From IMG/VR virus record IMGVR_UViG_3300013767_000039, positions 1 through 46,303 of that record: a stretch of DNA of 46,303 bases; one strand, written 5' to 3'. Each line of letters starts with the position of its first letter. The stretch's first letter is position 1. This DNA comes from a virus. The translations under genes were made by a program, and so were the position numbers. This document shows, piece by piece, positions 7,525 through 38,341 of the stretch. The notes under the pieces were generated by a model. That model made no database searches and was not told where the DNA came from. It worked only from the letters and a program-made list of their open reading frames with translations.

Positions 7525-7542
7525 CACTTTAAGGGTCACACT

Positions 7543-14755: not shown

Positions 14756-15000
14756 TGGATAACACGCTGATTATCAGCCGTGGAACTGCTGCAGCGGAGC
14801 TTCTGAAGACAGAGGCTTTCGCTGTGGTGGTCAATGAGCTTTACAACCAATACCTAGGTGACATCACAAGCAGCCCCATGGAGGCTAAGGAATTGCGGGA
14901 GACCCGCTTTTACCAGCTCCGGGCACTGCAGGACATCACCACAGAACTGAATAGCTGGGTTCAAGCGAAAGACCAGCTCTTTGAAGAGAGTAACGATTAA
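14755..15000 (+). CDS. Hypothetical head-module protein (81 aa)
   Basis: The start overlaps the portal stop (TGATG). It lies between portal and scaffold. Confidence 0.6.
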   Translation: MDNTLIISRGTAAAELLKTEAFAVVVNELYNQYLGDITSSPMEAKELRETRFYQLRALQDITTELNSWVQAKDQLFEESND

Positions 15001-15002
15001 GT

Positions 15003-27504: not shown

Positions 27505-27656
27505 CGGGTGTTCTCCCTCAGCTCACGGGCAACCCATTTGCCCCATCCAAGGAATGCTACACCCACCAAAGCCCCACGCAGAATCTGGTACACCGGCCAC
27601 AGCGCCATGCGCGCCAGTACCTTGTGGGGCGCGTTCATGTTCTTTTTCATCATCAT
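27501..27656 (-). CDS. Small membrane protein (51 aa; MMMKKNMNAPHKVLARMALWPVYQILRGALVGVAFLGWGKWVARELRENTR), below the track cutoff
   Basis: Hand-translated. The ATG overlaps the integrase stop (ATGA) and AGGAGAG lies upstream. Its stop overlaps the lipoprotein ATG (ATGA). Confidence 0.5.
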   Translation of the reverse strand: MMMKKNMNAPHKVLARMALWPVYQILRGALVGVAFLGWGKWVARELRENTR

Positions 27657-28474
27657 CTGGTCTCTCTCCTAACGATCCTCTTGAGGTCTGCCGTGGACAG
27701 GTGGGCGTACCTCTTGGTGGTCTCAATGTTTTCATGACCCAAGAATTCCTTGACGGCCATGATGTTCCCTGAGTCTGCCAGCAGTCGGGTTGCAGCCGTG
27801 TGACGGAGGATATGCAGGACAAAATCAGCATCGTCCTCCATCCCCATGGCCGTCCTCAGGCGTTTCCAGAGCTGGTCAATCTTATTCTTGTTCAAGGTGA
27901 ACGGCAGGGCACCCTTCAGGGCTTCTATAGCCGTGTCAGTCAGGGGCACCACGCGGCTCTTGCCTGTCTTAGTGTCGGGAGCCCACAGGTGTACCTCATC
28001 CCCACGGACATCCTTGGGCTTGAGATTCACCAGCTCCCCACGGCGCATCCCGGTCTCAATCAGGACGGTAACGAAGCGGGCAAACTCAAACTCGCCCCAT
28101 GCCTCCAGCAGGGCCATCATCTGCCGCTCTTCCTCAGGCTCAATCCAGCGGATGCGCCCCTCAGGTTCATCGTAGAACTTGATTTTGGGCATTCGCTCAA
28201 TCCAGTCCCGATCATGTGCGAACTTGAGCACCTGAAAGATATTCACCAGCTTGCGATTAACCGTGCTGTCCTTAATGGTGCCGCGGACCTCACGCAACCA
28301 AGCGTCAATGGACAGGGTGGTGACCTCAGCCAGCTTGAGGTTCCCTACCACGTCAATGAAGCCCTCCACGTTGCGGTAAGCCGTCTTTTCGTAGGCCTTA
28401 CCCATCCACAGGTCTTTGGCGCAATACCGCAGAAGTTCCTTCAGATTCGCTGGCGCTTTCATGGTGACGGCCAT
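27653..28474 (-). CDS. int: Tyrosine recombinase/phage integrase (273 aa)
   Basis: ETGMRRGELVNL (Arg I), HILRHTAATRLL (H-x-x-R) and LGHENIETTKRYAHL (catalytic Tyr) are present. GGGAGGG SD. Confidence 0.9.
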   Translation of the reverse strand: MAVTMKAPANLKELLRYCAKDLWMGKAYEKTAYRNVEGFIDVVGNLKLAEVTTLSIDAWLREVRGTIKDSTVNRKLVNIFQVLKFAHDRDWIERMPKIKFYDEPEGRIRWIEPEEERQMMALLEAWGEFEFARFVTVLIETGMRRGELVNLKPKDVRGDEVHLWAPDTKTGKSRVVPLTDTAIEALKGALPFTLNKNKIDQLWKRLRTAMGMEDDADFVLHILRHTAATRLLADSGNIMAVKEFLGHENIETTKRYAHLSTADLKRIVRRETR

Positions 28475-28506
28475 TGTAACCCTCCCGTTACGTTTAAGTC
28501 TAGCTT

Positions 28507-28543
28507 AAAAAAATGAGACACCTAAGTTACTCAGGTATCTCAT
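28507..28543 (-). terminator. Rho-independent-type terminator just upstream of int
   Basis: The minus strand reads ATGAGAtACCT-gagtaactt-AGGTgTCTCAT followed by T7, only about 30 nt before the int start. Confidence 0.5.
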
Positions 28544-28571
28544 CGTAGTACATCACTGCTACTGGTGTCAA

Positions 28572-28611
28572 GCTATGCGCTATCGGTTGCTATGATAGCA
28601 GACTATAGCAA
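28572..28611. promoter_or_regulatory. Second cluster of GCTAT/ATAGC half-sites
   Basis: aGCTATgcGCTATcggtTGCTATgATAGCAgacTATAGCAA: five half-sites, including the palindrome TGCTAT-g-ATAGCA. It shares TATAGCAA/TTGCTAT with 26186-26210. Confidence 0.35.
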
Positions 28612-28629
28612 ATGTGTTGAATGTATGGC

Positions 28630-28698
28630 TCAGCCAATACGAGTCAAGCACATATAGACCACGCCTATAAGAATAAGCGCAATGATAGACAGCATCAT
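28630..28698 (-). CDS. Possible 22-aa hydrophobic peptide (MMLSIIALILIGVVYMCLTRIG)
   Basis: Hand-translated. The ATG overlaps the mazG stop (ATGA). It is a single hydrophobic helix and very short, so the call is weak. Confidence 0.25.
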   Translation of the reverse strand: MMLSIIALILIGVVYMCLTRIG

Positions 28699-29003
28699 CG
28701 GTTGTCTCCCGAACCTTGGATAACCCCCCGCTCCTGACGACTCTTGAGCTTGGTGAGGTTGGTGTTGGCAATGTCGTCAAGGTTTAGCCCATGGTCGTCA
28801 GCCAGTGCGGCAACGAACCACAGAACATCCCCCAGCTCTTTGGCTACGTATTGGGTGTCAAGGTGCTTGTGGTCACGCTGGGCTTTGGCATACGCGCCAT
28901 ACAGCTCACCCACCTCACCAATCAGGCCGTCTTTGGCGTACTGGTGGTTAGCCGATGGCAGGCGATAGCCCATGGCCTCAGCCTGGTAGTGATACAGGTG
29001 CAT
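28695..29003 (-). CDS. mazG: MazG-like nucleoside triphosphate pyrophosphohydrolase (102 aa)
   Basis: LIGEVGELYGAY and ELGDVLWFVAALA (E-x-x-E ... E-x-x-D metal-binding helices) are present. The C-terminal NLTKLKSRQERG is typical. Confidence 0.85.
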   Translation of the reverse strand: MHLYHYQAEAMGYRLPSANHQYAKDGLIGEVGELYGAYAKAQRDHKHLDTQYVAKELGDVLWFVAALADDHGLNLDDIANTNLTKLKSRQERGVIQGSGDNR

Positions 29004-29236
29004 TACTTCGCCTGTGGTCCAGAGGCAGGCTGACTGACGACATGCGCAGACGGCACAAAGACAGTCTTAGGCTTGGCTACGGCAACCTCTGTAGGGTGAG
29101 CTGCAGTCACGGAGGGGTGGGCCACAGTCACCACAGGGTGAGCTGCAACAGCTACCGGGTGTGCGGCAACCACAGTGATTGCATGGGAGGCCTGTGCTGC
29201 GAACAGCAGAGAGAGGGTCAGTAGGAGCTTTTTCAT
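29003..29236 (-). CDS. Secreted small protein (77 aa) with four AHP repeats
   Basis: Signal peptide MKKLLLTLSLLFAAQASHA. The mature part is ITVVAAHPVAVAAHPVVTVAHPSVTAAHPTEVAV... Confidence 0.6.
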   Translation of the reverse strand: MKKLLLTLSLLFAAQASHAITVVAAHPVAVAAHPVVTVAHPSVTAAHPTEVAVAKPKTVFVPSAHVVSQPASGPQAK

Positions 29237-29418
29237 ACTGGTACGTAGACAGTGTTCAGGGTTTCAATGCGGCCAGTCTCTTCGTCATACGAAAGGACAC
29301 GGGAGGTGTTGACCCAATCCCCGTTGAGGTGACCCCGTGGATGGTCTACCGGAATGAGTGAGCCACGATGGCCCACCACAGCCGCATAGAGCTTTTCATA
29401 GCGGACTGTTGGCTTCAC
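29233..29418 (-). CDS. Hypothetical protein (61 aa)
   Basis: ORF with 4-nt overlaps to both neighbours. Confidence 0.55.
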   Translation of the reverse strand: MKPTVRYEKLYAAVVGHRGSLIPVDHPRGHLNGDWVNTSRVLSYDEETGRIETLNTVYVPV

Positions 29419-29789
29419 AGGCTGTCTACCAGGCGGTCCAGATAGAACTTGGCTTTCTTCAGGTCTTCCTCACCGTTCTTGTCCATGAAGCGGGTAAGGT
29501 ATTCCCAAGCACGGCTCCAGCAGTCAACCTGATGCATGTCAAGGTAGACCTCCATGGAGCTGTCAATCTTGTCCAAGAGCACCTTGCGAACATCAATGAC
29601 CTCCATGCCGTTACCAAGGTCATAGTGCTTCGGTTTGTACACAGCGTCATGCACTACACTGTGCGCTTGCACAGCGCGGTAGGCGTTCCACAGGTCTTCG
29701 TTGGTTTTGCTGCGGACTTCACCCACCATGCCATAGTCATGCACCGGGTTGACCAGCATTCGATCCCGATTGTTGTTTACGGTTTCCAT
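29415..29789 (-). CDS. Phage protein resembling the DUF3310 family (124 aa)
   Basis: KPKHYDLGNGMEVIDV ... AWEYLTRFMDK ... DLKKAKFYLDRL fits the remembered pattern (HY ... iE-id ... KY-Ra ... dl-KA-Yl). Confidence 0.55.
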   Translation of the reverse strand: METVNNNRDRMLVNPVHDYGMVGEVRSKTNEDLWNAYRAVQAHSVVHDAVYKPKHYDLGNGMEVIDVRKVLLDKIDSSMEVYLDMHQVDCWSRAWEYLTRFMDKNGEEDLKKAKFYLDRLVDSL

Positions 29790-30505
29790 AGCTTCACTTC
29801 ATTCGTTTCAAAATCCCAATCCTCAGCTCGGAGAATTCGGGCCATACGTGCATTCATCAGGGCGTCCTCAGCCGTGAGACCAGCCTTGATATAGGCATCC
29901 TCTACGGTCTTCCACACAGCCCCGTGTTTCTTCAGGATTGCCTCAGCTCCCTTGGGTCCAGTGCCGGGGATACCTGAGTACCCATCGGTGTGGTCACCAG
30001 TGATGGTCTGAGTGAGGAAACGGTAGTTCGCCTCAGCTTCCGTGGACTCCACCCACTTGCCTGACGTATCGGGTGACAGGTGCCACATCCGACCAGGGAT
30101 AGTCAGTAGGTCTTTGTCCATGGAGCAGATGACAGCCTTACCCTTGAACTTGGTCATGAGAATGCCTAGGCAGTCATCAGCCTCAAGCACATCCTTTTCC
30201 ATGTGGGGGTAGGTTTCCTTTGCCCAGCTCTTGAGGGCCATGTAGCCCACAGGTTTGCGCCCCTTGCGATTGGCTTTGTAGCTGGGGTTCAGGGTCTTGC
30301 GGAAGTTCTGCAGGCCAGAGAAACACAGCTTGAATTCCTTCAGGCCTGTGTCCTCCTGGTACTTCTGAAGCAAAGAGGTAAAACGTTCCTTGGCCTTGTT
30401 GAGGTCCATGTGGACAGTCCAAGTGTCAACGTCCCACTCAATCTCTTCCTCAGCTCCTGTAGCGGCACTGAAGCACGGTATATCGGCGTCAATCAATAAC
30501 AGCAT
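29777..30505 (-). CDS. T7 gp6-like 5'-3' exonuclease/FEN (242 aa)
   Basis: NPSYKANRKGRKPVGY, ICSMDKDLLTIP, QTITGDHTDGYSGIPG and MARILRAEDWDF...KLWKP parallel T7 gp6 (NYKANRK..KKPVGY, SCDKDFKTIP, QTIKGDITDGYSGIAG, MARILRFNEYNF...YLWRP). Confidence 0.9.
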   Translation of the reverse strand: MLLLIDADIPCFSAATGAEEEIEWDVDTWTVHMDLNKAKERFTSLLQKYQEDTGLKEFKLCFSGLQNFRKTLNPSYKANRKGRKPVGYMALKSWAKETYPHMEKDVLEADDCLGILMTKFKGKAVICSMDKDLLTIPGRMWHLSPDTSGKWVESTEAEANYRFLTQTITGDHTDGYSGIPGTGPKGAEAILKKHGAVWKTVEDAYIKAGLTAEDALMNARMARILRAEDWDFETNEVKLWKP

Positions 30506-30747
30506 CAGTCGTATAGGGCTGCGACGAGTTTTCCTGCGGCATCCTCAAGGGCGTTCAACAGCACGCAGGCTTCGTCCTCATCCTCTTCCTCTTCTAAGCA
30601 GACGCAACTTAGGAAGTGGTCAATCAGCGTGCTCAGGTCAACCTCACACTCACCAACCTCAGTCCCGTTGATGTGAACCGGAATCATGAGCTTGTGGCCG
30701 TACAGGTACGGGTAGGTGTCTACAGTTTTGATTTCAGTGATAGTCAT
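30505..30747 (-). CDS. Hypothetical acidic, Cys-containing protein (80 aa)
   Basis: ORF with 1-nt and 14-nt overlaps to its neighbours; contains CLEEEEDEDEAC. Confidence 0.6.
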   Translation of the reverse strand: MTITEIKTVDTYPYLYGHKLMIPVHINGTEVGECEVDLSTLIDHFLSCVCLEEEEDEDEACVLLNALEDAAGKLVAALYD

Positions 30748-31747
30748 ATGCAGCTTCTATGAATGTTTGTGCTTGTGGTGCGACGATGGCGTTTCCGTAG
30801 GCGCGCAAGCGTCCCACTCTGGAGGGAGTCCCATGAGCCAACGGGCGTGTTCCGGGTTCAACTGGCCGCCACTTTCCATCGCGGCATCGGAGCCAGTCAG
30901 CAGCTCGCCAGTGGCCGTTAGTCGGGCCGGTCCCGGTTCCCCATAGTCCTTCACTGCCTCCGACAGATAGCCCGTTTGGCGTCCTGTGGCGGCTCTGCTG
31001 GGTCTCATCCCCTGCCGTTCTATGTGGTCCGTGGCGTTCGGTGTAGGCCATCCCGCAAAGGACACTTGCGTTCTCAGGTCCGAGACTTGTCCACCCCCGT
31101 GTGTACCCTTGCAGTGCGCTGCTGCTGGAGTGTTCCATCCCGCTAGGTTCGCCTGGCGTGGCAATTGGTCGAACCGGGGGCGCTGACCCTCCCGTGGGCG
31201 AATGTCGCAACCGGAGTCCTTCCAATCCCTGGTCGTCGGTGTCACCCAGCCTGCCAATCCAGTAGGTTCTATCTCGGATGTGCGGAGCACCGATGCCCGC
31301 AGCCGGGAAAGCAACCGCCCCCGTGGCATAACCCAAGGCTTCCAAGTCATCTTGTACAAGCTGGAGCCAAGGCTCTGCGTCATTGCTCGCAACCTGTTCT
31401 CCAAAGATGACTGGAGGTTTGCACTGCGTGATGAGGTAGTGCATGTGGGGCCAAAGATGCCGCTCGTCAGACATCCCAGCGCCTCTGCCTGCCTTGGAGA
31501 ATGGTTGGCAAGGGCAGGAACCTGTCCATACCTCACGGTCATCTGGAAATCCAGCGTTGCGCAGGGCAAGACTCCAGACCCCGATTCCAGCGAAGAAATG
31601 CACTTGCTTGAACCCACGCAGCTCTGCTGGTGTGATGTCACGTATGTCCCTTTCATCCACTACGCCTGGCGCAATGTGTCCTCCCTCGATGAGGTTACGG
31701 AGCCACTGTGCGGCGTAGGGTTCAATCTCGTTGTAAAAAGCTGTCAT
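30734..31747 (-). CDS. DNA (cytosine-5)-methyltransferase (337 aa, frame A)
   Basis: Motif I HFFAGIGVWS, IV GSCPCQPFSKAG, VI IFGEQV, VIII GAPHIRDRTYW and X YGNAIVAPQA are present. The region between VIII and X is low-complexity. Confidence 0.9.
   Translation of the reverse strand: MTAFYNEIEPYAAQWLRNLIEGGHIAPGVVDERDIRDITPAELRGFKQVHFFAGIGVWSLALRNAGFPDDREVWTGSCPCQPFSKAGRGAGMSDERHLWPHMHYLITQCKPPVIFGEQVASNDAEPWLQLVQDDLEALGYATGAVAFPAAGIGAPHIRDRTYWIGRLGDTDDQGLEGLRLRHSPTGGSAPPVRPIATPGEPSGMEHSSSSALQGYTRGWTSLGPENASVLCGMAYTERHGPHRTAGDETQQSRHRTPNGLSVGGSEGLWGTGTGPTNGHWRAADWLRCRDGKWRPVEPGTRPLAHGTPSRVGRLRAYGNAIVAPQAQTFIEAAYDYH
30757..31656 (-). other. Nested +1-frame ORF (frame B, 299 codons) inside the methyltransferase gene, with protein-like repeats and an MTase-like C-terminal motif
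   Basis: Frame B contains LAGWVTPTTRDWKDSG, LAGWNTPAAAHCKGTHGG, FAGWPTPNATDHIERQG and LYKMTWKPWVMPRGRLLSRLRASVLRTS. It ends with GQLNPEHARWLMGLPPEWD. See the findings. Confidence 0.35.
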
Positions 31748-33543
31748 CAGTGTGTGTCATACCAATTCAGTCCTGTCTTGTACTCAGCATCAATGGGGCA
31801 CTTGAATTCAAAGAACTCCCCTGCCCGCCTGGCGCACTCTGTAACCATCTGTCCAAAGGAATCGGCCAGCTCTTCCCGGACGGCAAACTGAAGCTCATCG
31901 TGGATGTACCCCAGCAATACAAAGTCACCATTCCAGCCATAGCGGTATCCGCGTTGCATCACTTCAATCCAGACCTCTACAAGCCACCGTTTGCTGATGA
32001 GTGCCCCTGCCCCCTGTAGGAGGAAGTTGAGAGCACTGTGGGGGCTTCTGATGTGAACATGCCTGCCGTCAAGGCCGATGAGATAGCCACGTTCTTTGAC
32101 TACCTTTTCAACCTTTTCCTTGAGCTTGTTGAGTGCCGGAAGTCCTGCTAGGAATTTGGCTTTGATCTTCTTTCCAGCAGCACGGCCACCACCAACGATG
32201 TCACCGATAAGCTCATCACCAGCGCCATACAAAAAAGCGTAGATAAATCGCTTCGCGTCATCGCGGGTAGGCAGGCCTGCCGCTAGCTGGTTGGTCGTGT
32301 GTACGTCACCAGTTAGAAGCGTCCTAACATATTCGCCGGCGTCCCAGCGAGCCATGAAAGATGCAAGGCATCGCAGCTCAAGGCCTGACAGATCGCAACC
32401 GACCATGCGGAACCCCTTGCGCACGCCAAAGAGCTGTCTGCACTCTTTGCCCCACAAAGCCCGCACACTTGGCACTTGGGCAATGTTGGGACTGGCATGG
32501 GTGCATCGTCCGGTTGCTGCTCCGTTTGTGTTGACGCTTCCGTGGATGTGTCCAGCACGTTCACTTTTAAGCCACGCCGTATCTCCCTCTGCCAACTGCC
32601 CAATCCGTTTCTCCAGTAAGAAATACTCAGCCAGTACCTTGGCCTCCGGGAAGTCCAGAGACCCAAGCACATCCTCATCAATCTTTGGCCTGCCACCGTC
32701 CGTGAAGAGCTTAGGTTTCCAGCCATACTTAGCTGTGAGGCGCTTCGCTATCTGGTCACGGCTACCGGGGTTGAATTCCTCCACACCGTCCTTGAGCCTC
32801 TTGCCAGTTTTCTCTGACCAACGCTCTGTGACGATGGGTGGGAATATCTCCAGCATGTCCTGCCGGATGGTGTCCCTACGTTGTGCCAGCGTGGCATAGA
32901 GACCAGCCGCGGACCGAACATCAAAGGGCCAGCCAGAGCGTTCCATGCGGGCACAAATCCACGCTACTTCGTGCTCAAGCTGGGTAGCCTTGGGGGAATA
33001 TGTGGAGCTGGTCAGGTGCCTGTAGAAAGCCTCTGAGACCTCCACGTCCTGCACGCAGTAGTCCAGCATGTCCTGGCTGAACTCAAGCCATTCCATACCA
33101 GGCACATAGGCGTCCCCCAAGCGTTCCTTGAATGCAGCGGAGTACTCACCTTTCATCAGGCCAAGGCGATAGCCCCATGCCTCTAGGCTGTGGGAACCAC
33201 TGAGCTTCGGGGGGAGCTTGCCAGCCTCTACGTGTCCACCGTCACGGTCACGCAGGTTGCTGAAGATGAGGCGAGAGAGAACTAAGGTGTCTACTACGTT
33301 GGCCTCAGGAACCTGAAACCACGGGTATATCTTCTGGATTACCGGGAGGTCAAACCTGATGACGTTGTGCCCGACAATGAGACCGTCTTTGGCATTTGCC
33401 ATCAACAGGCGGATACCGAAGTCTAGGGATTCCCCGTGGAACCTGAAGACCGTTGCAGTCTCAGTGTCCTTGAGAACCAGACAGTGGATGGTGGTGACTT
33501 CAAACAGCAGGCCGTTGGTTTCAATGTCGAATACCGTTGCCAT
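31747..33543 (-). CDS. Family A DNA polymerase with 3'-5' exonuclease domain (T7 gp5-like, 598 aa)
   Basis: Exo I FDIETNGL, Exo II HNVIRFDL and Exo III YCVQDVE are present. Pol motif A DLSGLELRCLA, motif B RDDAKRFIYAFLYGAG and motif C YIHDELQF are also present. Confidence 0.95.
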   Translation of the reverse strand: MATVFDIETNGLLFEVTTIHCLVLKDTETATVFRFHGESLDFGIRLLMANAKDGLIVGHNVIRFDLPVIQKIYPWFQVPEANVVDTLVLSRLIFSNLRDRDGGHVEAGKLPPKLSGSHSLEAWGYRLGLMKGEYSAAFKERLGDAYVPGMEWLEFSQDMLDYCVQDVEVSEAFYRHLTSSTYSPKATQLEHEVAWICARMERSGWPFDVRSAAGLYATLAQRRDTIRQDMLEIFPPIVTERWSEKTGKRLKDGVEEFNPGSRDQIAKRLTAKYGWKPKLFTDGGRPKIDEDVLGSLDFPEAKVLAEYFLLEKRIGQLAEGDTAWLKSERAGHIHGSVNTNGAATGRCTHASPNIAQVPSVRALWGKECRQLFGVRKGFRMVGCDLSGLELRCLASFMARWDAGEYVRTLLTGDVHTTNQLAAGLPTRDDAKRFIYAFLYGAGDELIGDIVGGGRAAGKKIKAKFLAGLPALNKLKEKVEKVVKERGYLIGLDGRHVHIRSPHSALNFLLQGAGALISKRWLVEVWIEVMQRGYRYGWNGDFVLLGYIHDELQFAVREELADSFGQMVTECARRAGEFFEFKCPIDAEYKTGLNWYDTH

Positions 33544-33685
33544 TACCGCTTATTGAGCTTCCCCCAAAACGAGAAATCAAGCTGGAAACACAACAGGTCA
33601 ATCTCAAGGACATCCGGGAGCATACCCATGCCCTCATACCAACGGACACCAACCTTGAGGCCTGTGAAGGCGGAGATATTGACGT

Positions 33686-34069
33686 TCACTTCACGAGCAC
33701 CGTGTCCTTGTCAGAGCAGCCAACCAGCTCTTTACGATAGCCACAGTACATAGTCCGCTCAACCAACCGACCACTATTAATGTCCCCCACATAGCCAGTG
33801 CAGGTAACGAGACCATTAGCATTGCTGTCAGTAGGACGGCAAGAAATAAAAGTCCCCGGAACAGTGTTACCCGCATTCGTCGGCCAGCCGTGTTCAAAGT
33901 ATTCCTTAGCATTCGCTTTCGCTAGGTTGCGCTCTTCGTCTACCAGGGCGTGCTGGGAGCTGAGCTGCTGTTGAACTCGCTGCTCTGTGGTCTGTGGTGC
34001 TTTGCTGCAGGCTGCGAGGGTTGCCAGAATGGCGATACAAACGATGGTCTTGAGTTTCATGGTGGTCAA
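33686..34069 (-). CDS. Lipoprotein (127 aa) between the primase-helicase and DNA polymerase genes
   Basis: Signal peptide with lipobox LAA-C (IAILATLAACSK). ATGA coupling to the primase-helicase stop. The mature part has five further Cys residues. Confidence 0.7.
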   Translation of the reverse strand: MTTMKLKTIVCIAILATLAACSKAPQTTEQRVQQQLSSQHALVDEERNLAKANAKEYFEHGWPTNAGNTVPGTFISCRPTDSNANGLVTCTGYVGDINSGRLVERTMYCGYRKELVGCSDKDTVLVK

Positions 34070-35667
34070 AATGCGTAGGCTTCCTCTAGCTCTTCCTCAG
34101 CCGGGAATGCCCCTTTGTCAAACAAACGTCCTGCCTCACGGTCATAGCCAAGGAAAATCAGCTCTCCTGTAGCCTGGCCTGTGTAACGATCCTTGAGGAC
34201 TCTAAAGATGGTGGTGGAGCGTTTCTCAACGTCCTTGTGCTGCTGGTCACGCTCTAGGCCAAACATGAAGTAAGACCAGAACCCGATGGCGCGAGCACCT
34301 TTGAAGTGCCGGATGGCTACCTGACCACCTTCCTCATGGCTCTTTCCCTCAGGAGTGCTCAGGTGTGACACGAAGTGAATGATGATGCGAAGCTCATTGG
34401 CTAGGCCTGCCATTTCCTTCATGATTTGCTCAAGGCTCCCACGTTCATCTGCGGTATCCGCCATGGCTGTGAGGTGGTCCAGATAGAAAATCCGTATGCC
34501 CTCCGCGTGGGCCATGTAGCGAACCTTGGCCTTGACCACATCCCATGCAGTCTCACCAAAGCTGTTGTACAGGGAGACCTTACCGTCCAGCTCTTCTACT
34601 GCTGCTGTACGCTCTTCACGGGTCCAGGACCCATCGGGGATGTGGAAACGCTTGCCCTTCAGCTTCCCTGCAATACGTGCAACAGTCTCGCTGGGGGCCT
34701 GCTCAAGAAAGATGAGGCCAACCTTGAGGCCTAGGGTCTCGATGTCATAGGCAATCTGCTGGGTCAGGAAATCTGTCTTACCAATCCCTGTACCAGCACC
34801 AAAGGCGTACAGCTCACCAAAGCGGCGTCCATAGGTCAGCTCAGTAAGCCTGTCCAAGAACCACGGCAGGCCCTTTTCAATCTCCCGGTCAAGCTCACCC
34901 AACAGGTCAGCAATCCCGACAATCCCATCAGGCCGGTACGCCTTGGCATTCCAAATCGCATTGACAATATCCTGACCCTTACCAGCCACCAGACACTCAT
35001 TGGCGTCCTTCAGTGGTAGTGAGGCAATCTTGGCTTTCCCCGGCCCTAAGACCTCCGCGCATTCCCTTGCAGCTTTGATGCCTGGCTCATCCATGTCAAA
35101 CATGATGACCACCTCATCAAAGCCCTTGAAAAACTCAAGGTTCTGCGCAAAGGACTTGCGGGCACCTTGGGCACCGTTGGGCACACTGACCACCGGCCAC
35201 TTACAGGATTGCACCTGGGCGACTGAGAGAGCATCAATCTCACCCTCAGTGACCACCAGTTTCTTACCAGTGTTCCAGAGGTTCTGTCCAAACAGCGGGG
35301 GGTTCTTTGCGTCGCCAATGAAGTTGAACTGCTTTTCTGCGCCGCGGACCTTGCAGGCGATAACCTGTTGGTCTTTGTAGTAGGGGTAGAAGTGGGCTGT
35401 GTCACCCTTGAACTTCCCTACCCTCACCCCAAAGAATCTGCAGGTTTCCTCTGAGATTTTTCGGGCTGACAGGGGTTTTACTGCTGCACTGCTGTACTCA
35501 TCTAGGTTTGCTGCCACCGTCCTCCTGTTGTTACTGCTTGTCCCATCCCCACGCTCTCGATAGCCACACCCAAAACACCAGCCATGACCATCTGTGTATC
35601 GCGCAAGGTTGTCTTGAGAGCCACACGAAGGGCACGACTCTTTCCCTATGTATGCGTTCTCATCCAT
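34066..35667 (-). CDS. Bifunctional primase-helicase (T7 gp4-like, 533 aa)
   Basis: Zn ribbon CPSCGS...CFGCGY, TOPRIM VVTEGEIDALSV, and a DnaB-type helicase with Walker A GAGTGIGKTDF and Walker B IFYLDHL. Confidence 0.95.
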   Translation of the reverse strand: MDENAYIGKESCPSCGSQDNLARYTDGHGWCFGCGYRERGDGTSSNNRRTVAANLDEYSSAAVKPLSARKISEETCRFFGVRVGKFKGDTAHFYPYYKDQQVIACKVRGAEKQFNFIGDAKNPPLFGQNLWNTGKKLVVTEGEIDALSVAQVQSCKWPVVSVPNGAQGARKSFAQNLEFFKGFDEVVIMFDMDEPGIKAARECAEVLGPGKAKIASLPLKDANECLVAGKGQDIVNAIWNAKAYRPDGIVGIADLLGELDREIEKGLPWFLDRLTELTYGRRFGELYAFGAGTGIGKTDFLTQQIAYDIETLGLKVGLIFLEQAPSETVARIAGKLKGKRFHIPDGSWTREERTAAVEELDGKVSLYNSFGETAWDVVKAKVRYMAHAEGIRIFYLDHLTAMADTADERGSLEQIMKEMAGLANELRIIIHFVSHLSTPEGKSHEEGGQVAIRHFKGARAIGFWSYFMFGLERDQQHKDVEKRSTTIFRVLKDRYTGQATGELIFLGYDREAGRLFDKGAFPAEEELEEAYAF

Positions 35668-36325
35668 TCGTCATCAGGGCTTCCCAGCTCACCGGGAACA
35701 GGTCTGACAGCGTTTGGGCAATACGCTCAGCTACGCCACGGGTTTCCTTTTGGGTGTGGGAATCCAGACGGACCTTGCACATGCGAGCCCATGCGTACAG
35801 GGAGCCTGTCCAGTACCACTCAGTCGTCATCGACTGCGGGAGCACCATACGGGCCTGTTCAGGGCAGACACCTTCCTCAAGAAGCTCCTGGTAGAGCTGT
35901 AGGGCGGTCTCCTGGTTGTGTCGGACGCCCTCTAGCAGGTAATCCCGCATGAAGCCCTCAAAGACAACGTTGGAGCTGCCCTGCTTGACGTTGGGAGCCT
36001 TGAATCTCAGCTCATCCGGAAGGTAGAACTCAGGGGGGCTGTCCACATAGCGGCGGCTGACCTCATTCCATGCGAAGCCAACCGTGTGCTTCTGGAGCTG
36101 GCGTGCTACGAAAATGGGAGCCTTGACGTGGAATTGCGCCTGGCAATGGCTGAAGGGTGACCAGTGGTTGTGCTTGGCTAGGTAACCGATTAGCTTTTGG
36201 TCTGCCTCGTGCAGCGTGCCATCATAAAGGTCCGCATACCCACTCTGCTTGTCGAAAGAGACCCGTGCGGAGTTGACCACTGTGAGGTCATCCCCCATGT
36301 GGTCCATCAAATCTACGTTAATCAT
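35660..36325 (-). CDS. thyX: Flavin-dependent thymidylate synthase ThyX (221 aa)
   Basis: HWSPFSHCQAQFHVKAPIFVARQLQKH and WNEVSRRY correspond to the ThyX signature region (RHR...S-x-R-Y variant). Confidence 0.8.
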   Translation of the reverse strand: MINVDLMDHMGDDLTVVNSARVSFDKQSGYADLYDGTLHEADQKLIGYLAKHNHWSPFSHCQAQFHVKAPIFVARQLQKHTVGFAWNEVSRRYVDSPPEFYLPDELRFKAPNVKQGSSNVVFEGFMRDYLLEGVRHNQETALQLYQELLEEGVCPEQARMVLPQSMTTEWYWTGSLYAWARMCKVRLDSHTQKETRGVAERIAQTLSDLFPVSWEALMTNG

Positions 36326-36588
36326 GCTGCCCTCAGTACATCTTCAATGCGAGCAGCACGAACGCTCATGTAGTCCACGAGACCTTTTTTAACATCGTAG
36401 TCCTCCACGAACACACGTTCCTTGAGGTCATAGCCATAGACAGCGCCAAGGAACTCAAGGAACTCAGCGAGAATCATCATCCAAGAGGCTGCAGGGGTGA
36501 CCACAATGTCCTTGGACAGGGTTGCTGACAGCGGATTGGTGCTGTCCTCTTCGTCAAAATTGTGGGAACGGAAGGAATACGTTTGCAT
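36322..36588 (-). CDS. Hypothetical protein (88 aa)
   Basis: ORF that is ATGA-coupled to thyX. Confidence 0.6.
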   Translation of the reverse strand: MQTYSFRSHNFDEEDSTNPLSATLSKDIVVTPAASWMMILAEFLEFLGAVYGYDLKERVFVEDYDVKKGLVDYMSVRAARIEDVLRAA

Positions 36589-36593
36589 AAGGT

Positions 36594-36791
36594 TTAGTGA
36601 AGGGTGTAACGCATGTACCGGAGGCCTGTTGAAGGGTTGGACTGGAACTCACCATTGATTTCCCAGCCCCTCAGACGCAGCTCATGGATGCGAGCAGCGA
36701 GGCGTGAAACACCGTGGTCCATCAGAGCCTCACGCGGGGAAATACTCCCCACCGTTTTCAGATGGTTCAGAACCACCTCAGTCTGTGTCAT
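36594..36791 (-). CDS. Small winged-helix DNA-binding protein (65 aa)
   Basis: SISPREALMDHGVSRLAARIHELRLRGWEI is the typical pattern of small phage wHTH proteins (gi-rLaaRI-eLr-G-I). Confidence 0.65.
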   Translation of the reverse strand: MTQTEVVLNHLKTVGSISPREALMDHGVSRLAARIHELRLRGWEINGEFQSNPSTGLRYMRYTLH

Positions 36792-36988
36792 TACGAAGCA
36801 ACCACCGGAGGCGGCAAGGTCTCGGACGGCACCAGGCTGTTCAGAAACGCCACAAGGTCAGCGATACCTTGGGTGCTCAGCGGCTGGTTGATGAGGGTCA
36901 GTGTGATGCAGGTAGTGCCATAGGTGGACTCATCAACGTCCGCAATGCCATGGGCGAGACCATCAGTACTTACAAACGAAAATGCCAT
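36791..36988 (-). CDS. Hypothetical protein (65 aa), a short paralog of the N-terminal part of 37003..37308
   Basis: ITLTLINQPLSTQGIADLVAFLNSLVPSE aligns with LNLSITGQSFPVADLAEFSQFLQHVGALLMPAE of the neighbour. TAATG coupling downstream. Confidence 0.55.
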   Translation of the reverse strand: MAFSFVSTDGLAHGIADVDESTYGTTCITLTLINQPLSTQGIADLVAFLNSLVPSETLPPPVVAS

Positions 36989-37002
36989 GTGATTTCTCTT
37001 GT

Positions 37003-37308
37003 TTAGATTTGGGGAGCGTCCAGCGGCGATACAGCAGCCGGGGTCGGGACAGCTTGGGTGGTCTCCGGGACAGCCACAGCAGCCACAGGTGCCACAGCAG
37101 CCACAGGTGCCACAGCAGCCACAGGTGCCACTTCAGCAGGCATCAGCAGTGCGCCAACGTGCTGCAGGAACTGACTGAACTCAGCGAGGTCAGCCACCGG
37201 GAACGATTGGCCTGTGATGCTCAGATTGAGTGCCGGGGCACCATCCACAACGTTGATTTGTGCGGTTACCTTGGCACCCTTGGTGGTGGTTACGAATTCA
37301 ATAGCCAT
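37003..37308 (-). CDS. Hypothetical protein (101 aa) with an (APVAAV)3 repeat
   Basis: The ORF contains three exact 18-bp tandem units encoding VAPVAA repeats and has a Pro/Ala-rich tail. Confidence 0.6.
   Translation of the reverse strand: MAIEFVTTTKGAKVTAQINVVDGAPALNLSITGQSFPVADLAEFSQFLQHVGALLMPAEVAPVAAVAPVAAVAPVAAVAVPETTQAVPTPAAVSPLDAPQI
37075..37128. repeat. Three exact tandem copies of an 18-mer (CACAGCAGCCACAGGTGC on the plus strand)
   Basis: Read directly: 37075-37092, 37093-37110 and 37111-37128. Confidence 0.9.
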
Positions 37309-37745
37309 GATTTTGGAATGTGTTTATCTGCGTAGGGGAAGCCGTACTTGTCGCACCATTGACCATAGGTGGTCTTGCTACCCTTGCGCAGCTTGTTGGA
37401 ACTGTTGGAAAAGATGAAACGGATGTCTAATTCAGGGTGATGGAGCTTTACCGCCAACATTTTCGTTCTGTCAGCACTGGTAAAATAACCCTTACCCTCA
37501 ATGTAAATTCCATTGGGGAGGATAAAGTCAGGGATGTACTTATGCTCAACAATATACGGAAGCCTAACAGCCTCGTATTTAAAAGAAATCCCTGCGTTAT
37601 TCAACTGCGTGGCAATGGACTTTTCTAGTCCGCTTCTAAAAGAATTAGAAGTCAAGGTCGCCAGTGTCTTCCTCAGTGGTCTCAGGAGCAGCCTTAGGCT
37701 TCTCTGCCACGTAGTCACCCTCATCATCGGCGTCAAAGCCCCCAC
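37290..37745 (-). CDS. T7 endonuclease I-like Holliday junction resolvase (start uncertain: ATG 37727/37724 or TTG 37655)
   Basis: FRSGLEKSIATQL, PYIVEHKYIPDFILPNGIYIEGKGYF and HPELDIRFIFS parallel T7 gp3 (FRSGLEDKVSKQL, PDFLLPNGIFVETKG, HPELDIRIVFS). The 5' end of the track ORF overlaps the SSB C-terminus. Confidence 0.85.
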   Translation of the reverse strand: MGALTPMMRVTTWQRSLRLLLRPLRKTLATLTSNSFRSGLEKSIATQLNNAGISFKYEAVRLPYIVEHKYIPDFILPNGIYIEGKGYFTSADRTKMLAVKLHHPELDIRFIFSNSSNKLRKGSKTTYGQWCDKYGFPYADKHIPKSWLLNS

Positions 37746-38172
37746 CGTTGTACTCGGTCAGGTTGATGATTTGGACGGAATTGACGTAGGCAGAGACACC
37801 CAGCGCGCCACCAGCACTGTATGCCTTGGCAGTCCCGCGGACCCGCAGGACGGAGCCACCACCGATGTTCAGGTCTTCAACATCAAGGATGGGTTGGCCC
37901 TTGGAGTCAAAGAACTTCGGTTGATTCTTGGACTTGAAGCCAAGGGTGACCGTGCCGTCTTCCTGTTCTTGATACGGGAAATTGGCCTTGGACATCTTGG
38001 CTTTGCCATGCGCTTCAATAAAGATGTCTTTATACATTTCCAGAAGCTCACCAGCAGCTTCCTTAGACATATTCAGGCCAGTCTTATAGACACCATCGGC
38101 ATTAAATTTGGTGTCCGGGCGAATCAGCTTAGGATAAACAGCCGTGCCCTTTGGGGTAATAAACTTACTCAT
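37645..38172 (-). CDS. T7 gp2.5-like single-stranded DNA-binding protein (175 aa)
   Basis: Real start is MSKFITPKGTAVYPKL at 38172. GGGSVLRVRG resembles GGGSKLKVKY of gp2.5. The acidic C-terminal tail ends in Phe (EEDTGDLDF, versus EDGDF in T7). Confidence 0.85.
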   Translation of the reverse strand: MSKFITPKGTAVYPKLIRPDTKFNADGVYKTGLNMSKEAAGELLEMYKDIFIEAHGKAKMSKANFPYQEQEDGTVTLGFKSKNQPKFFDSKGQPILDVEDLNIGGGSVLRVRGTAKAYSAGGALGVSAYVNSVQIINLTEYNGGGFDADDEGDYVAEKPKAAPETTEEDTGDLDF

Positions 38173-38341
38173 CAGGTGGTTCAGGTTCCTCAAAAATTGA
38201 GATGATGGAATAACCGTCAATGCGGTCAGAGATAGCCTCAATGTCAACACCGTCTGACATCAATGCAACTGCATCGTCAAGGGGGATGCTGAAGCTCCGC
38301 CCAAGACGCTCACGGACGCGCCGCTCAGTTTGGTAGTTCAT
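38165..38341 (-). CDS. Small acidic protein (58 aa; MNYQTERRVRERLGRSFSIPLDDAVALMSDGVDIEAISDRIDGYSIISIFEEPEPPDE), below the track cutoff
   Basis: Hand-translated. The ATG overlaps the RNAP stop (ATGA), and the 3' end overlaps the SSB start by 8 nt. Confidence 0.5.
   Translation of the reverse strand: MNYQTERRVRERLGRSFSIPLDDAVALMSDGVDIEAISDRIDGYSIISIFEEPEPPDE

What the first reader, a model, noticed from the sequence alone, without database searches (positions are those of the whole stretch)
30757..31747. About 650 nt of the C5-methyltransferase gene read as sensible protein in two frames (dual coding or recoding)
Frame A (337 aa) has the full C5-MTase motif set: FFAGIG, PCQPFS, FGEQV, GAPHIRDRTYW and YGNAIVAP. 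The +1 frame (B) is open for 299 codons and does not look like junk.

Frame B contains:
- Three spaced copies of (L/F)AGW[VNP]TP: LAGWVTPTTRDWKDSG, LAGWNTPAAAHCKGTHGG and FAGWPTPNATDHIERQG.
- The block LYKMTWKPWVMPRGRLLSRLRASVLRTS.
- The ending GQLNPEHARWLMGLPPEWD. This matches the L-T-P-x-E-x-x-R-L-M-G-F-P-x-x-W signature that normally sits just before motif X of C5-MTases. It matches better than the frame-A residues encoded by the same nucleotides (RPVEPGTRPLAHGTPSRV).

The protein-like part of frame B overlaps frame-A motifs VI and VIII, so both frames look constrained over the same DNA. Frame A between motifs VIII and X is low-complexity (G/R/T/S/P/E), as an overprinted frame often is.

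From memory, both C-terminal consensus strings occur in prophage MTase families: ...DWLFCRDGKWRPVEPGTFPLAHG...GNAI and ...GQLNPAHSRWLMGLPPEWD. VEPGTFPLAHG shifted by +1 reads LNPAHSRWLMG only for one specific codon choice: I constructed it with gaa ccc ggc aca ttc ..., whereas ccg gtc gag ccg gives unrelated residues. That dependence on third positions hints at a conserved overlap rather than chance.

Possible explanations:
1. A nested gene encoding a target-recognition-like protein.
2. +1 then -1 recoding that builds a longer MTase.
3. Compensating indels or sequencing errors.
Basis: partly seen in the sequence, partly recalled or inferred. Interest (0 to 1): 0.8.

Follow-up and report, generated by a model that had tools for sequence, protein, structure and literature searches.

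The report
Two proteins from one methylase gene
This phage DNA cytosine methylase gene carries a second 299-codon gene nested in its +1 reading frame, and both frames are kept intact and under purifying selection in thousands of phages and prophages, which most likely makes it a two-subunit methylase like the known oddity M.EcoHK31I.

Summary
On the minus strand, frame A (30734-31747, 337 aa) is a C5-cytosine methyltransferase. Frame B (30757-31656, 299 aa, +1 relative to A) is fully nested in it.

- Both frames are open in about 78 of 84 phage and IMG/VR loci (the other 6 missed only a motif filter). They are also open in 66 of 71 assessable genomes retrieved by a frame-neutral 38-nt pattern.
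- Frame-B products form a family of 16,814 50%-identity clusters.
- An overlapping-gene dN/dS test shows a mosaic of constraint:
  - A only before motif IV.
  - Both frames from motif IV to VIII.
  - B only in the middle, where A has omega about 1.2 and is predicted disordered yet is kept stop-free.
  - Both frames in the hairpin block.
  - B dominant over the motif-IX-like block.
  - A dominant over motif X.
- B has its own ATG in about 70 of 74 loci, often behind an AGGAG built from a rare AGG codon.
- No conserved slippery site exists.

Best reading: two polypeptides. [quoted passage not shown] B is a nested subunit with a motif-IX-like helix and variable GW.TP modules.

This architecture has a precedent in M.EcoHK31I, so it is a new variant of a known kind. 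Recoding, sequencing error and chance are not supported.

The parts
30734..31747 (-). Gene A (alpha-like): C5-cytosine methyltransferase, 337 aa. It has motifs I, IV, VI and VIII, a disordered linker, a C-terminal beta-hairpin and motif X.
   Evidence: Pfam PF00145 at 57 bits against a cutoff of 22. PHROG 363 over the full length. hhalign to M.HhaI at 97.6% probability over motifs I-VIII. The AlphaFold model matches M.HaeIII, M.HhaI and DNMT2 in Foldseek at probability 1.0.
30757..31656 (-). Gene B (beta-like): 299-codon ORF in the +1 frame, wholly inside gene A.
   Evidence: ORF list. More than 4,869 homologues in one protein search. 16,814 50%-identity clusters at E<=1e-3 and 7,315 at E<=1e-30. 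PHROG 1008 and 31772. No Pfam or NCBIfam match.
31654..31656 (-). ATG start of gene B. In the window it is preceded only by a weak AGGCG (31663-31667).
   Evidence: In about 70 of 74 loci, a frame-B ATG lies at A-alignment columns 42-56, just after the last frame-B stop. A Shine-Dalgarno core lies 5-17 nt upstream in 48% of loci against a 9% background. At one site, 32 of 35 AGG codons create AGGAG.
31657..31747 (-). R1: A-only N-terminal segment, used as the control region.
   Evidence: omega_A 0.11 [0.07-0.16]. omega_B 1.08 [0.77-1.55]. A-synonymous distance 0.77.
31505..31656 (-). R2: leader of B, overlapping motif I of A. Frame B is open but its amino-acid sequence is barely constrained.
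   Evidence: omega_A 0.12. omega_B 0.85 [0.68-1.04]. The wobble entropy of A is still 1.1-1.6.
31262..31504 (-). R3: doubly constrained block. Frame A carries motifs IV-VIII. Frame B carries the N-domain (NLS.RQAK ... STLYK.TWK ... RLRASV.RTS).
   Evidence: omega_A 0.29 [0.24-0.33]. omega_B 0.46 [0.39-0.54]. The A-synonymous rate is 0.29x that of R1. AlphaFold gives frame B a helix at 78-95 and a beta-hairpin at 101-123, with pLDDT 73-79.
30931..31261 (-). R4: middle. Frame B carries three GW.TP modules. Frame A is a passenger linker that is only kept free of stops.
   Evidence: omega_A 1.24 [1.05-1.47]. omega_B 0.61 [0.48-0.77]. A residues 172-271 have pLDDT below 50. The number of modules varies among homologues. 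Frame A openness is selected: 4.2 stops expected, 0 observed in 76 loci.
30865..30930 (-). C-terminal block a. Frame A reads GPTNGHWRAADWLRCRDGKWR (beta-hairpin). Frame B reads PARLTATGELLTGSDAAMESGG.
   Evidence: omega_A 0.47 [0.35-0.63]. omega_B 0.50 [0.35-0.69].
30811..30864 (-). C-terminal block b. Frame B reads QLNPEHARWLMGLPPEWD (motif-IX-like helix). Frame A reads PVEPGTRPLAHGTPSRVG.
   Evidence: omega_B 0.15 [0.10-0.20] against omega_A 0.66 [0.47-0.98]. The best hhalign local match of the B profile to M.HhaI falls on its motif IX, residues 273-291, but is not significant (probability 0.1). The nucleotides are 90-99% invariant in 74 loci.
30760..30810 (-). C-terminal block c. Frame A reads RLRAYGNAIVAP... 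(motif X). Frame B reads the tail ACAPTETPSSHHKHKHS.
   Evidence: omega_A 0.28 [0.22-0.35] against omega_B 0.77 [0.63-0.92]. AlphaFold puts helices at A residues 308-321 and 323-336.

Best explanation
The locus holds two co-directional, fully overlapping genes that are translated separately.

Gene A makes the catalytic large domain of a C5-cytosine DNA methyltransferase. It contains motifs I, IV, VI and VIII, then about 100 residues of unconstrained, disordered linker, then a conserved beta-hairpin and the motif-X helices.

Gene B starts at its own ATG about 30 codons into A and is read in the +1 frame. It makes a second polypeptide with four parts:
- a dispensable leader;
- a conserved helix-plus-hairpin N-domain, overprinted on motifs IV-VIII of A;
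- a variable number of GW.TP.. modules;
- a strongly conserved C-terminal QLNP..SRWLMGLP..WD helix. This sits where motif IX sits in ordinary enzymes, just before motif X.

Inferred mechanism: A and B assemble into a heterodimeric methyltransferase. B supplies the motif-IX element and probably much of the target-recognition (small) domain that A lacks. M.EcoHK31I works this way: its beta chain, encoded in another frame inside the alpha gene, supplies motif IX.

What is shown:
- both frames are maintained and under purifying selection;
- the constraint forms a mosaic along the gene;
- B has its own initiation signals.

What is inferred:
- that B binds A;
- that B is needed for, or shapes the specificity of, methylation.
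For: 1. Conservation of the architecture.
- Both frames are open in the four GenBank phages examined.
- They are open in 78 of 84 phage and IMG/VR loci.
- They are open in 66 of 71 assessable GTDB genomes fetched with a frame-neutral 38-nt pattern. These genomes span many phyla.
- They are open even in a short 259-aa form.

2. Selection, from 25 disjoint sequence pairs.
- Control region: omega_B 1.08.
- Motifs IV-VIII: omega_B 0.46 and omega_A 0.29.
- Middle: omega_B 0.61 and omega_A 1.24.
- C-terminal block: omega_B 0.47 and omega_A 0.38.
- A-synonymous substitutions fall to 0.24-0.29x of the control.
- At fine scale, the IX block has omega_B 0.15 and the X block has omega_A 0.28.
- The codon-position entropies give the same picture.

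3. Openness of each frame is itself selected.

4. Independent initiation of B. An ATG follows the last B-frame stop in about 70 of 74 loci. A Shine-Dalgarno core is present in 48% of loci against a 9% background, and AGG codons are concentrated at the site that creates AGGAG.

5. A is a true C5-methyltransferase large domain whose motif VIII-to-X interval is disordered.

6. The best, though insignificant, match of B to M.HhaI is motif IX.

7. Natural in-frame fusions join the N-terminal part of A to the C-terminal part of B. They place the GW.TP modules and the IX-like helix directly after motif VIII, which is the canonical order.

8. Precedent. [quoted passage not shown] Alpha carries motifs I-VIII, X and the TRD. 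Beta carries motif IX. Both chains are required (PMC2836561; PMC3404938).
Against: - No direct evidence of translation of either frame, such as proteomics or ribosome profiling, was available.
- B has no detectable sequence or fold homology to any methyltransferase small domain: no Pfam or NCBIfam match, nothing in the PDB sequence search, hhalign probability 0.1, and an AlphaFold model of B alone with pLDDT 56 and meaningless Foldseek hits. Its role as a methyltransferase subunit therefore rests on position, the precedent and the fusions.
- The Pfam match to an artificial A-B-A chimera does not extend past motif VIII.
- The window's own B start has only a weak Shine-Dalgarno sequence (AGGCG).
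- The leader of B is essentially unconstrained (omega_B 0.85), so the true start could lie further downstream.
Confidence: 0.62

Rival explanations
1. B is a real, separately translated protein but is not a methyltransferase subunit. On this view it is an unrelated accessory protein, for example a DNA-binding or anti-defence factor. It would have been overprinted on the methylase gene and travel with it only because the two cannot be separated.
For: B has no detectable homology to any methyltransferase domain. Its N-domain overlaps the catalytic motifs of A and looks like a de novo overprint. AlphaFold predicts little stable structure for B alone.
Against: - The most constrained part of B (omega_B 0.15) sits exactly where motif IX belongs, a few residues before motif X in frame A. 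Its best local alignment to M.HhaI is motif IX.
- A lacks any constrained target-recognition region of its own between motif VIII and the hairpin.
- M.EcoHK31I shows that this arrangement can be a functional two-chain enzyme (PMC2836561).
Confidence: 0.2
2. Recoding. Ribosomes, or RNA polymerase slippage, switch from frame A to B after motif VIII, or just before QLNP. They then switch back to A before motif X, producing one canonical methyltransferase. The long open frames would be by-products.
For: - Reading A ...CRDGKWR, then B QLNPEHARWLMGLPPEWD, then A RLRAYGNAI gives a string that resembles the canonical hairpin, motif IX and motif X of M.HhaI (NGKTRKLHPRECARVMGYPDSYKV...GNSV). This is my own reading of the sequence.
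- The dominant constraint alternates A, B, A across these blocks.
- In-frame fusions of the N-terminal part of A to the C-terminal part of B exist in databases.
Against: - No XXXYYYZ heptamer occurs in the B frame of the C-terminal block in any of 78 loci. No conserved heptamer or homopolymer run occurs after motif VIII.
- The fusion junctions are scattered over more than 100 codons, as expected for random indels.
- Only about 7% of unbiased loci are disrupted, frameshifted or fused.
- Frame B is under purifying selection and has its own ATG and Shine-Dalgarno sequence about 150-250 codons upstream of any useful shift site.
- Frame A is kept open through about 110-120 unconstrained codons, which recoding would not require.
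- +1 shift sites have no strict consensus, so a minor recoded product cannot be excluded.
Confidence: 0.1
3. The near-invariant 100-150 nt block is conserved as a nucleic-acid element, such as an RNA structure or a recombination or packaging site. On this view frame B is an incidental open frame in GC-rich DNA.
For: The block is the only part of 24 kb of this phage that megablast can match to any of 50,697 phage records, at 86-90% identity across five host genera. GC content is locally raised.
Against: - Sites that are synonymous in both frames evolve fast inside the block: dSS is 0.43-0.95, against dNN of 0.03-0.11. The conservation therefore tracks the coding effect, not the nucleotide.
- There is no Rfam match.
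- Frame B is open and constrained for about 750 nt, far beyond the block.
- Synonymous redraws predict 4-6 stops per frame.
Confidence: 0.03
4. Sequencing or assembly error, or compensating indels, in this one contig.
For: None specific. A few database relatives are frameshifted, and PGAP calls some of them pseudogenes.
Against: The same two-frame layout occurs in isolate phage genomes, complete bacterial chromosomes and thousands of metagenomic contigs.
Confidence: 0.01

Closest known systems
M.EcoHK31I, a heterodimeric C5-methyltransferase that recognises YGGCCR (Lee, Kam & Shaw 1995, as described in PMC2836561 and PMC3404938)
   Same: [quoted passage not shown] - The first about 42 residues of beta are dispensable, and internal Met codons can serve as starts. 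This parallels the unconstrained leader of B found here.
   Different: - In M.EcoHK31I, alpha also holds the target-recognition domain and beta is 176 aa. Here the motif VIII-to-hairpin interval of A is an unconstrained, disordered linker.
- Here B is larger (299 aa in the window; 225 to over 450 aa elsewhere) and carries variable GW.TP modules.
- Here B also overlaps catalytic motifs IV-VIII under double purifying selection.
- M.EcoHK31I belongs to a restriction-modification system. These genes are orphan genes of phages and prophages.
- Sequence homology between the two was not tested.
M.AquI, a two-subunit C5-methyltransferase (PMC3404938)
   Same: A natural C5-methyltransferase made of two polypeptides, split in the variable region after motif VIII.
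   Different: In M.AquI the alpha subunit carries motifs I-VIII and the beta subunit carries IX and X, with the split inside the variable region (PMC3404938); from memory, its two genes are consecutive with only a short overlap. Here motif X stays with the catalytic chain and the second gene is fully nested.
Ordinary monomeric C5-methyltransferases (M.HhaI, M.HaeIII; Pfam PF00145)
   Same: A shares the fold and motifs I, IV, VI, VIII and X.
   Different: - A has no constrained TRD or motif IX in the catalytic frame.
- Motifs II-III seem to lie before motif I. hhalign needs a 35-residue gap between motifs I and IV.
Viral overprinted genes (long same-strand overlaps, as reviewed in PMC8227390)
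   Same: One frame, the N-domain of B, is laid over an older conserved frame (motifs IV-VIII of A). The passenger frame is low-complexity or disordered in the middle.
   Different: The overlap is 900 nt, unusually long for prokaryotic viruses. The roles swap along the gene, so each frame is passenger in one part and dominant in another.

Membership tests
C5-cytosine DNA methyltransferase (Pfam PF00145), frame A | Score above the Pfam gathering threshold | tested here: met
   57 bits against a cutoff of 22. The match covers only residues 66-171. TIGR00675 scores 42 bits, below its cutoff of 100.65.
C5-cytosine DNA methyltransferase (Pfam PF00145), frame A | Motifs I (F.G.G), IV (PCQ catalytic Cys), VI (ENV-like) and VIII (Q/H.R.R) | tested here: met
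   FFAGIG, PCQPFS, GEQV and PHIRDR align to the corresponding motifs of M.HhaI (hhalign 97.6%; hmmsearch against PDB at 1e-13).
C5-cytosine DNA methyltransferase (Pfam PF00145), frame A | Motif X (GN.V helix) packing on the large domain | tested here: inconclusive
   YGNAIV is invariant (G318, N319, A320). AlphaFold predicts helices at 308-321 and 323-336 with pLDDT 62-85. No profile alignment reaches this region.
C5-cytosine DNA methyltransferase (Pfam PF00145), frame A | Structured target-recognition domain and motif IX between motifs VIII and X in the same polypeptide | tested here: not met
   A residues 172-271 have pLDDT 28-41 and omega_A 1.24. Over the IX position, omega_A is 0.66 against omega_B 0.15.
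M.EcoHK31I-type heterodimeric methyltransferase with a nested beta gene | Second ORF lies entirely inside the methyltransferase gene, on the same strand and in a different frame | tested here: met
   B spans 30757-31656, inside A at 30734-31747, in the +1 frame. The layout is conserved in 66 of 71 unbiased loci.
M.EcoHK31I-type heterodimeric methyltransferase with a nested beta gene | The large chain has motifs I-VIII and X | tested here: met
M.EcoHK31I-type heterodimeric methyltransferase with a nested beta gene | The small chain carries motif IX | tested here: inconclusive
   The best hhalign match of QLNPEHARWLMGLPPEWDA is M.HhaI motif IX (residues 273-291), but the probability is 0.1 and E is 0.53. 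This is the strongest constraint in B.
M.EcoHK31I-type heterodimeric methyltransferase with a nested beta gene | The large chain carries the TRD | tested here: not met
   The linker in A is unconstrained and disordered. Only the 21-residue hairpin block of A is constrained.
M.EcoHK31I-type heterodimeric methyltransferase with a nested beta gene | Both chains are required for methylation | not testable with these tools
   Needs expression and methylation assays.
M.EcoHK31I-type heterodimeric methyltransferase with a nested beta gene | Sequence homology to M.EcoHK31I alpha and beta | not tested
   The sequence is not held in any reachable source.
Programmed ribosomal frameshifting or transcriptional slippage | A conserved slippery sequence at a fixed position | tested here: not met
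   0 of 78 loci have an XXXYYYZ heptamer in the B frame of the C-terminal block. Heptamers after motif VIII are sporadic (10 of 78, all different). No conserved homopolymer runs occur.
Programmed ribosomal frameshifting or transcriptional slippage | The downstream frame lacks its own initiation signals and is unconstrained upstream of the shift site | tested here: not met
   B has an ATG and Shine-Dalgarno sequence. It is constrained from the motif IV region onward.

The most novel reading that the evidence does not exclude
This is an unrecognised and very large family, with at least 7,000-16,000 50%-identity clusters in phages and prophages of many bacterial phyla. Its members are obligate two-chain C5-methyltransferases. 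The target-recognition subunit is overprinted, over about 900 nt, on the gene of the catalytic subunit. The number and sequence of its GW.TP modules set the methylated motif.

The family may have arisen independently of M.EcoHK31I from a canonical gene. A +1/-1 pair of frameshifts around TRD and motif IX would then have been 'rescued' by separate initiation.

If so, it would be the most widespread and longest same-strand dual-coding gene pair known in prokaryotic viruses. It would also be a natural system for studying evolution under double constraint.
Probability: 0.35. Interest if true: 0.8.

Novelty: new variant of a known kind. Interest (0 to 1): 0.66.

Why it matters
- Long co-directional gene overlaps are regarded as almost absent from prokaryotes. 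Here there is a 900-nt nested pair with thousands of diverged copies. Selection in each frame can therefore be measured block by block, which makes it an unusually good model for evolution under double coding constraint.
- Annotation of this very common phage gene is inconsistent. Pipelines call frame A, or frame B (as 'hypothetical', 'putative metabolic enzyme' or 'DNA repair protein'), or two pseudogene halves. Recognising the pair would correct thousands of records.
- If B is the specificity subunit, predictions of phage and prophage methylation motifs that use frame A alone are incomplete. Swapping the modules of B may be how these orphan methylases change targets to evade restriction.
- Dual coding also explains why a block of about 100 nt is nearly invariant across phages of unrelated hosts. 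That block could otherwise be mistaken for a mobile element or an RNA element.

Tried and rejected
- Pfam on an artificial A(I-VIII)+B(TRD, IX)+A(X) chimera. The match did not extend beyond motif VIII, so it gives no support for a canonical recoded protein.
- B profile against PDB sequences. The only hits were a spurious GW-repeat match to dipeptidyl aminopeptidase BII at E 0.03.
- AlphaFold of B alone gave pLDDT 56 and pTM 0.25. Foldseek on that model returned only noise, such as spliceosome and cyanase chains.
- NCBIfam found nothing for B.
- Rfam on 30500-32000 found nothing relevant.
- Literature searches (Mte8; overlapping genes plus methyltransferase plus phage; heterodimeric or nested) found no description of this phage family as dual coding. 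The paper on out-of-frame remodelled E. coli gene families (PMC8788219) does not mention methyltransferases.
- I tried to obtain the M.EcoHK31I primary paper and sequence. The paper is not held, and no supplements are held for PMC2836561.
- I considered that 'A-only' short forms such as P0177 (259 aa) show A works alone. Rejected, because frame B is still open and recognisable in its DNA.
- I considered that the in-frame fusions of A to B are the functional or ancestral form. Judged unlikely, because the junctions are scattered. Each fusion also leaves a truncated N-terminal part of B and an orphan C-terminal part of A, as a single indel would. Only 5 of 71 unbiased loci are disrupted in any way.
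Full report
**1. What is in the window**

The feature lies on the minus strand.

- Frame A (30734-31747, 337 aa) has FFAGIG, PCQPFS, FGEQV, GAPHIRDRTYW and YGNAIVAP.
- Frame B (30757-31656, 299 codons) is the +1 frame of A and is wholly nested in it.
- Because B is +1, the wobble position of A is the second codon position of B, and the wobble position of B is the first codon position of A.
- Frame A scores 57 bits on Pfam PF00145, but only over residues 66-171. Frame B has no Pfam or NCBIfam match.
- PHROGs holds separate families for the two frames: 363 for A, and 1008 and 31772 for B. All are labelled DNA methyltransferase.

The gene sits in a T7-like replication module: RNA polymerase, primase-helicase, ThyX, PolA, this gene, then a 5'-3' exonuclease. 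The contig also encodes an integrase.

**2. The two-frame layout is conserved, not accidental**

Megablast against 50,697 phage genomes matched only about 150 nt of the gene. This is the C-terminal overlap block. It is 86-90% identical in phages of Edwardsiella, Burkholderia, Xanthomonas, Pseudomonas and Aeromonas. It is also the only match in 24 kb of this phage.

- In eiAU, phiXaf18, PMG1 and BcepC6B both frames are open across the gene. Annotators chose A in three of them and B in PMG1.
- Frame B retrieved more than 4,869 database proteins. An exhaustive profile search found 16,814 50%-identity clusters at E<=1e-3 and 7,315 at E<=1e-30.
- In 80 IMG/VR loci found through B, both frames were open in essentially all. 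The third frame was open for only about 12 codons.
- To remove the bias of searching with B, I scanned GTDB species genomes with a 38-nt degenerate pattern from the C-terminal block. More than 120 genomes from many phyla matched.
- Of 71 assessable loci from that scan, 66 have the intact nested pair and 5 are frameshifted, fused or interrupted.
- I also redrew synonymous codons from the usage of flanking genes.
  - With the A protein fixed, frame B should carry 4.6 stops per locus (6.1 in the window; 0 of 300 redraws open).
  - With the B protein fixed in the middle, frame A should carry 4.2 stops (4.4 in the window; 0 of 300 open).
  - None is observed in 76 loci.

**3. Which frame is under selection, and where**

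Codon-position entropies on a 74-sequence A-codon alignment show the following.

- Up to GSCPC, the wobble of A is normal: 1.1-1.6 bits, against 0.3-0.5 at positions 1 and 2.
- From QPFS to motif VIII, the wobble of A drops to 0.5-0.9.
- In the aligned block over the third GW.TP module of B, the only well-aligned part of the middle, the most variable position is the first position of A, which is the wobble of B.
- In the C-terminal block, all three positions are at 0.1-0.5.
- After the stop of B, the wobble of A returns to 1.2.

An OLGenie-style estimate on 25 disjoint sequence pairs, bootstrapped over pairs, gives these values.

| Region | omega_A | omega_B |
|---|---|---|
| R1, A only | 0.11 | 1.08 |
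| R2, B leader | 0.12 | 0.85 [0.68-1.04] |
| R3, motifs IV-VIII | 0.29 | 0.46 [0.39-0.54] |
| R4, middle | 1.24 [1.05-1.47] | 0.61 [0.48-0.77] |
| R5, C-terminal block | 0.38 | 0.47 |

A-synonymous divergence falls to 0.29x of the R1 control in R3 and to 0.24x in R5.

Splitting the C-terminal block gives these values.

| Block | omega_A | omega_B |
|---|---|---|
| a, hairpin | 0.47 | 0.50 |
| b, motif-IX position | 0.66 | 0.15 |
| c, motif-X position | 0.28 | 0.77 |

Sites that are synonymous in both frames remain fast (dSS 0.4-0.9). The near-invariance of the nucleotides is therefore explained by two coding constraints, not by a nucleic-acid element. Rfam finds nothing.

**4. How frame B is expressed**

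- In about 70 of 74 loci, an ATG in frame B lies within a 15-codon window of the A alignment. It follows the last frame-B stop directly.
- A Shine-Dalgarno core lies 5-17 nt upstream in 48% of loci, against 9% at random positions of the same genes.
- In the first 75 codons of A there are 35 AGG arginine codons across 78 loci. Of these, 32 sit at the single conserved (D/T)(E/T)RSI site, where AGG-AGC creates AGGAG 7-8 nt before the B ATG.
- The window's own B start has only AGGCG.
- No XXXYYYZ heptamer exists in the B frame of the C-terminal block in any of 78 loci. No conserved heptamer or homopolymer run follows motif VIII.

These points favour independent initiation over recoding.

**5. What the two proteins look like**

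*Frame A.* With a 54-sequence alignment, AlphaFold gives a confident N-terminal domain (residues 1-171, mostly pLDDT 77-95). A segment of about 100 residues follows with pLDDT 28-41 (172-271). Then come a beta-hairpin (284-296) and two helices (308-336) that include YGNAIV.

Foldseek matches M.HaeIII, M.HhaI, DNMT2 and DNMT1 at probability 1.0. hhalign and hmmsearch align motifs I, IV, VI and VIII to M.HhaI. So A is a complete large domain whose usual insertion, the TRD plus motif IX, is replaced by an unconstrained linker.

*Frame B.* B alone folds poorly (pLDDT 56). The better parts are a helix plus beta-hairpin in the N-domain (78-123) and strand-helix elements over ARLTATGELL...PEHARWLM...PPEWDA.

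The only local alignment of the B profile to M.HhaI falls on motif IX: QLNPEHARWLMGLPPEWDA against KLHPRECARVMGYPDSYKV. It is not significant (probability 0.1). Residues 4-32 and 71-173 were confirmed, but the C-terminal part was not.

My own reading of the DNA is that A ...DGKWR, followed by B QLNP...WLMGLPPEWD, followed by A RLRAYGNAI, mimics the canonical hairpin-IX-X string. This hints that the family descends from a one-frame enzyme through a pair of frameshifts. That is inference only.

**6. Natural fusions**

A search with an artificial chimera returned 59 database proteins in which the N-terminal part of A (motifs I-VIII) continues in frame into the C-terminal part of B and ends at the B stop. 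Examples come from Pseudomonas, Serratia, Ralstonia, Klebsiella and Citrobacter.

Their DNA shows a single indel. The N-terminal part of B is truncated soon after the junction. The C-terminal part of A, with motif X, is left as an orphan open frame. Junctions are scattered from before motif VIII to late in the middle.

I read these as decay products or assembly errors. They yield long ORFs only because both frames are open. They do show that the modules of B sit where a TRD and motif IX would sit. A 259-aa 'short' form still carries an open, recognisable frame B.

**7. Comparison with what is known**

M.EcoHK31I is a published heterodimeric C5-methyltransferase. [quoted passage not shown] Alpha has motifs I-VIII, X and the TRD. 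Beta has motif IX. Both chains are needed. The first about 42 residues of beta are dispensable, and internal Met codons can initiate translation (PMC2836561; PMC3404938, citing Lee, Kam & Shaw 1995). M.AquI is a second two-chain enzyme, split after motif VIII (PMC3404938).

The present gene has the same architecture: a nested beta-like ORF, I-VIII plus X in the large chain, a IX-like element in the small chain and a dispensable leader. It differs in three ways.

- The large chain has no constrained TRD.
- The small chain is longer, modular, and overlaps catalytic motifs IV-VIII under double selection.
- It is an orphan gene of phages and prophages and is extremely widespread.

I found no paper describing this phage family as dual coding. 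The library is incomplete, so prior description cannot be excluded.

**8. Verdict**

- Recoding and error are not supported.
- The most likely mechanism is a two-chain methyltransferase of the M.EcoHK31I type (confidence about 0.6). That both frames are real, separately translated genes is much more certain (about 0.9).
- I class it as a new variant of a known kind, with interest about 0.66. The principle is known from one enzyme. The scale, the mosaic of constraint and the apparent transfer of the recognition region to the nested frame are not.

Noticed in passing
L001 (Edwardsiella phage eiAU, NC_042029 about 13300-14721): The frame-B ORF lacks its usual stop and continues in frame into the next annotated gene, gp15, a Dam-like methyltransferase with CNPPYS. 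The result is a 474-codon open frame and a possible fusion of B to an adenine methylase.
   Followed up: partly
L068 (IMGVR_UViG_3300037156_000195): The frame-B ORF runs without a stop into the downstream family-A DNA polymerase gene, giving a 1103-codon open frame. L152 has a C-terminal extension of B of about 200 residues.
   Followed up: no
window 22000-46000: The only megablast similarity between 24 kb of this phage and 50,697 GenBank phage records is the roughly 150-nt dual-coded C-terminal block of the methylase gene (window about 30779-30938).
   Followed up: yes
window 30800-31400: GC content rises to 0.61-0.65 over the dual-coded part, against 0.52-0.56 in the flanks. This fits avoidance of stops in two frames and/or horizontal spread of the gene.
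   Followed up: no
window 27653-40770: The contig combines a T7-like module (single-subunit RNA polymerase 38338-40770, primase-helicase 34066-35667, ThyX 35660-36325, PolA 31747-33543, 5'-3' exonuclease 29777-30505) with a tyrosine integrase (27653-28474). This suggests a temperate T7-like phage.
   Followed up: partly
window 31745-31749 and 30734-30747: The PolA stop and the start of gene A overlap as ATGA. The next ORF (30505-30747, 80 aa, no Pfam match) starts 14 nt inside the end of gene A. The genes look tightly coupled in translation.
   Followed up: no
window 31630-31747 (A residues 1-40): The N-terminus of A (YNEIEPYAAQWLRNLI...) resembles motifs II-III of C5-methyltransferases but lies before motif I. 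hhalign to M.HhaI needs a 35-residue gap between motifs I and IV. This may be a local permutation of the fold.
   Followed up: partly
78 related loci, A codon at the conserved (D/T)(E/T)RSI site (window about 31645-31659): Of 35 AGG arginine codons in the first 75 codons of A, 32 occur at this one site. There they form an AGGAG Shine-Dalgarno sequence for the nested gene. The window itself uses a different B start position and lacks it.
   Followed up: yes
L209, L210 (E. coli chromosomes) and phage records: Annotation of this family is inconsistent. RefSeq calls frame A, or two pseudogene halves. PMG1 and many Burkholderia phage records call frame B ('Mte8-like', 'putative metabolic enzyme', 'DNA repair protein', 'hypothetical'). 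66 of 5,426 complete E. coli genomes carry a copy in a prophage.
   Followed up: partly
L207/L208 (contigs encoding P0177, Rhizobium oryzihabitans): The shortest family members (A of 259 aa, one GW.TP module in B) have a diverged C-terminal pair (A reads RPCEPGFTPWVDESPSVLG; B reads VNPALPRGLMNLPQCWD). They sit next to a convergent 248-aa HNH-domain gene, which could be a restriction partner.
   Followed up: no
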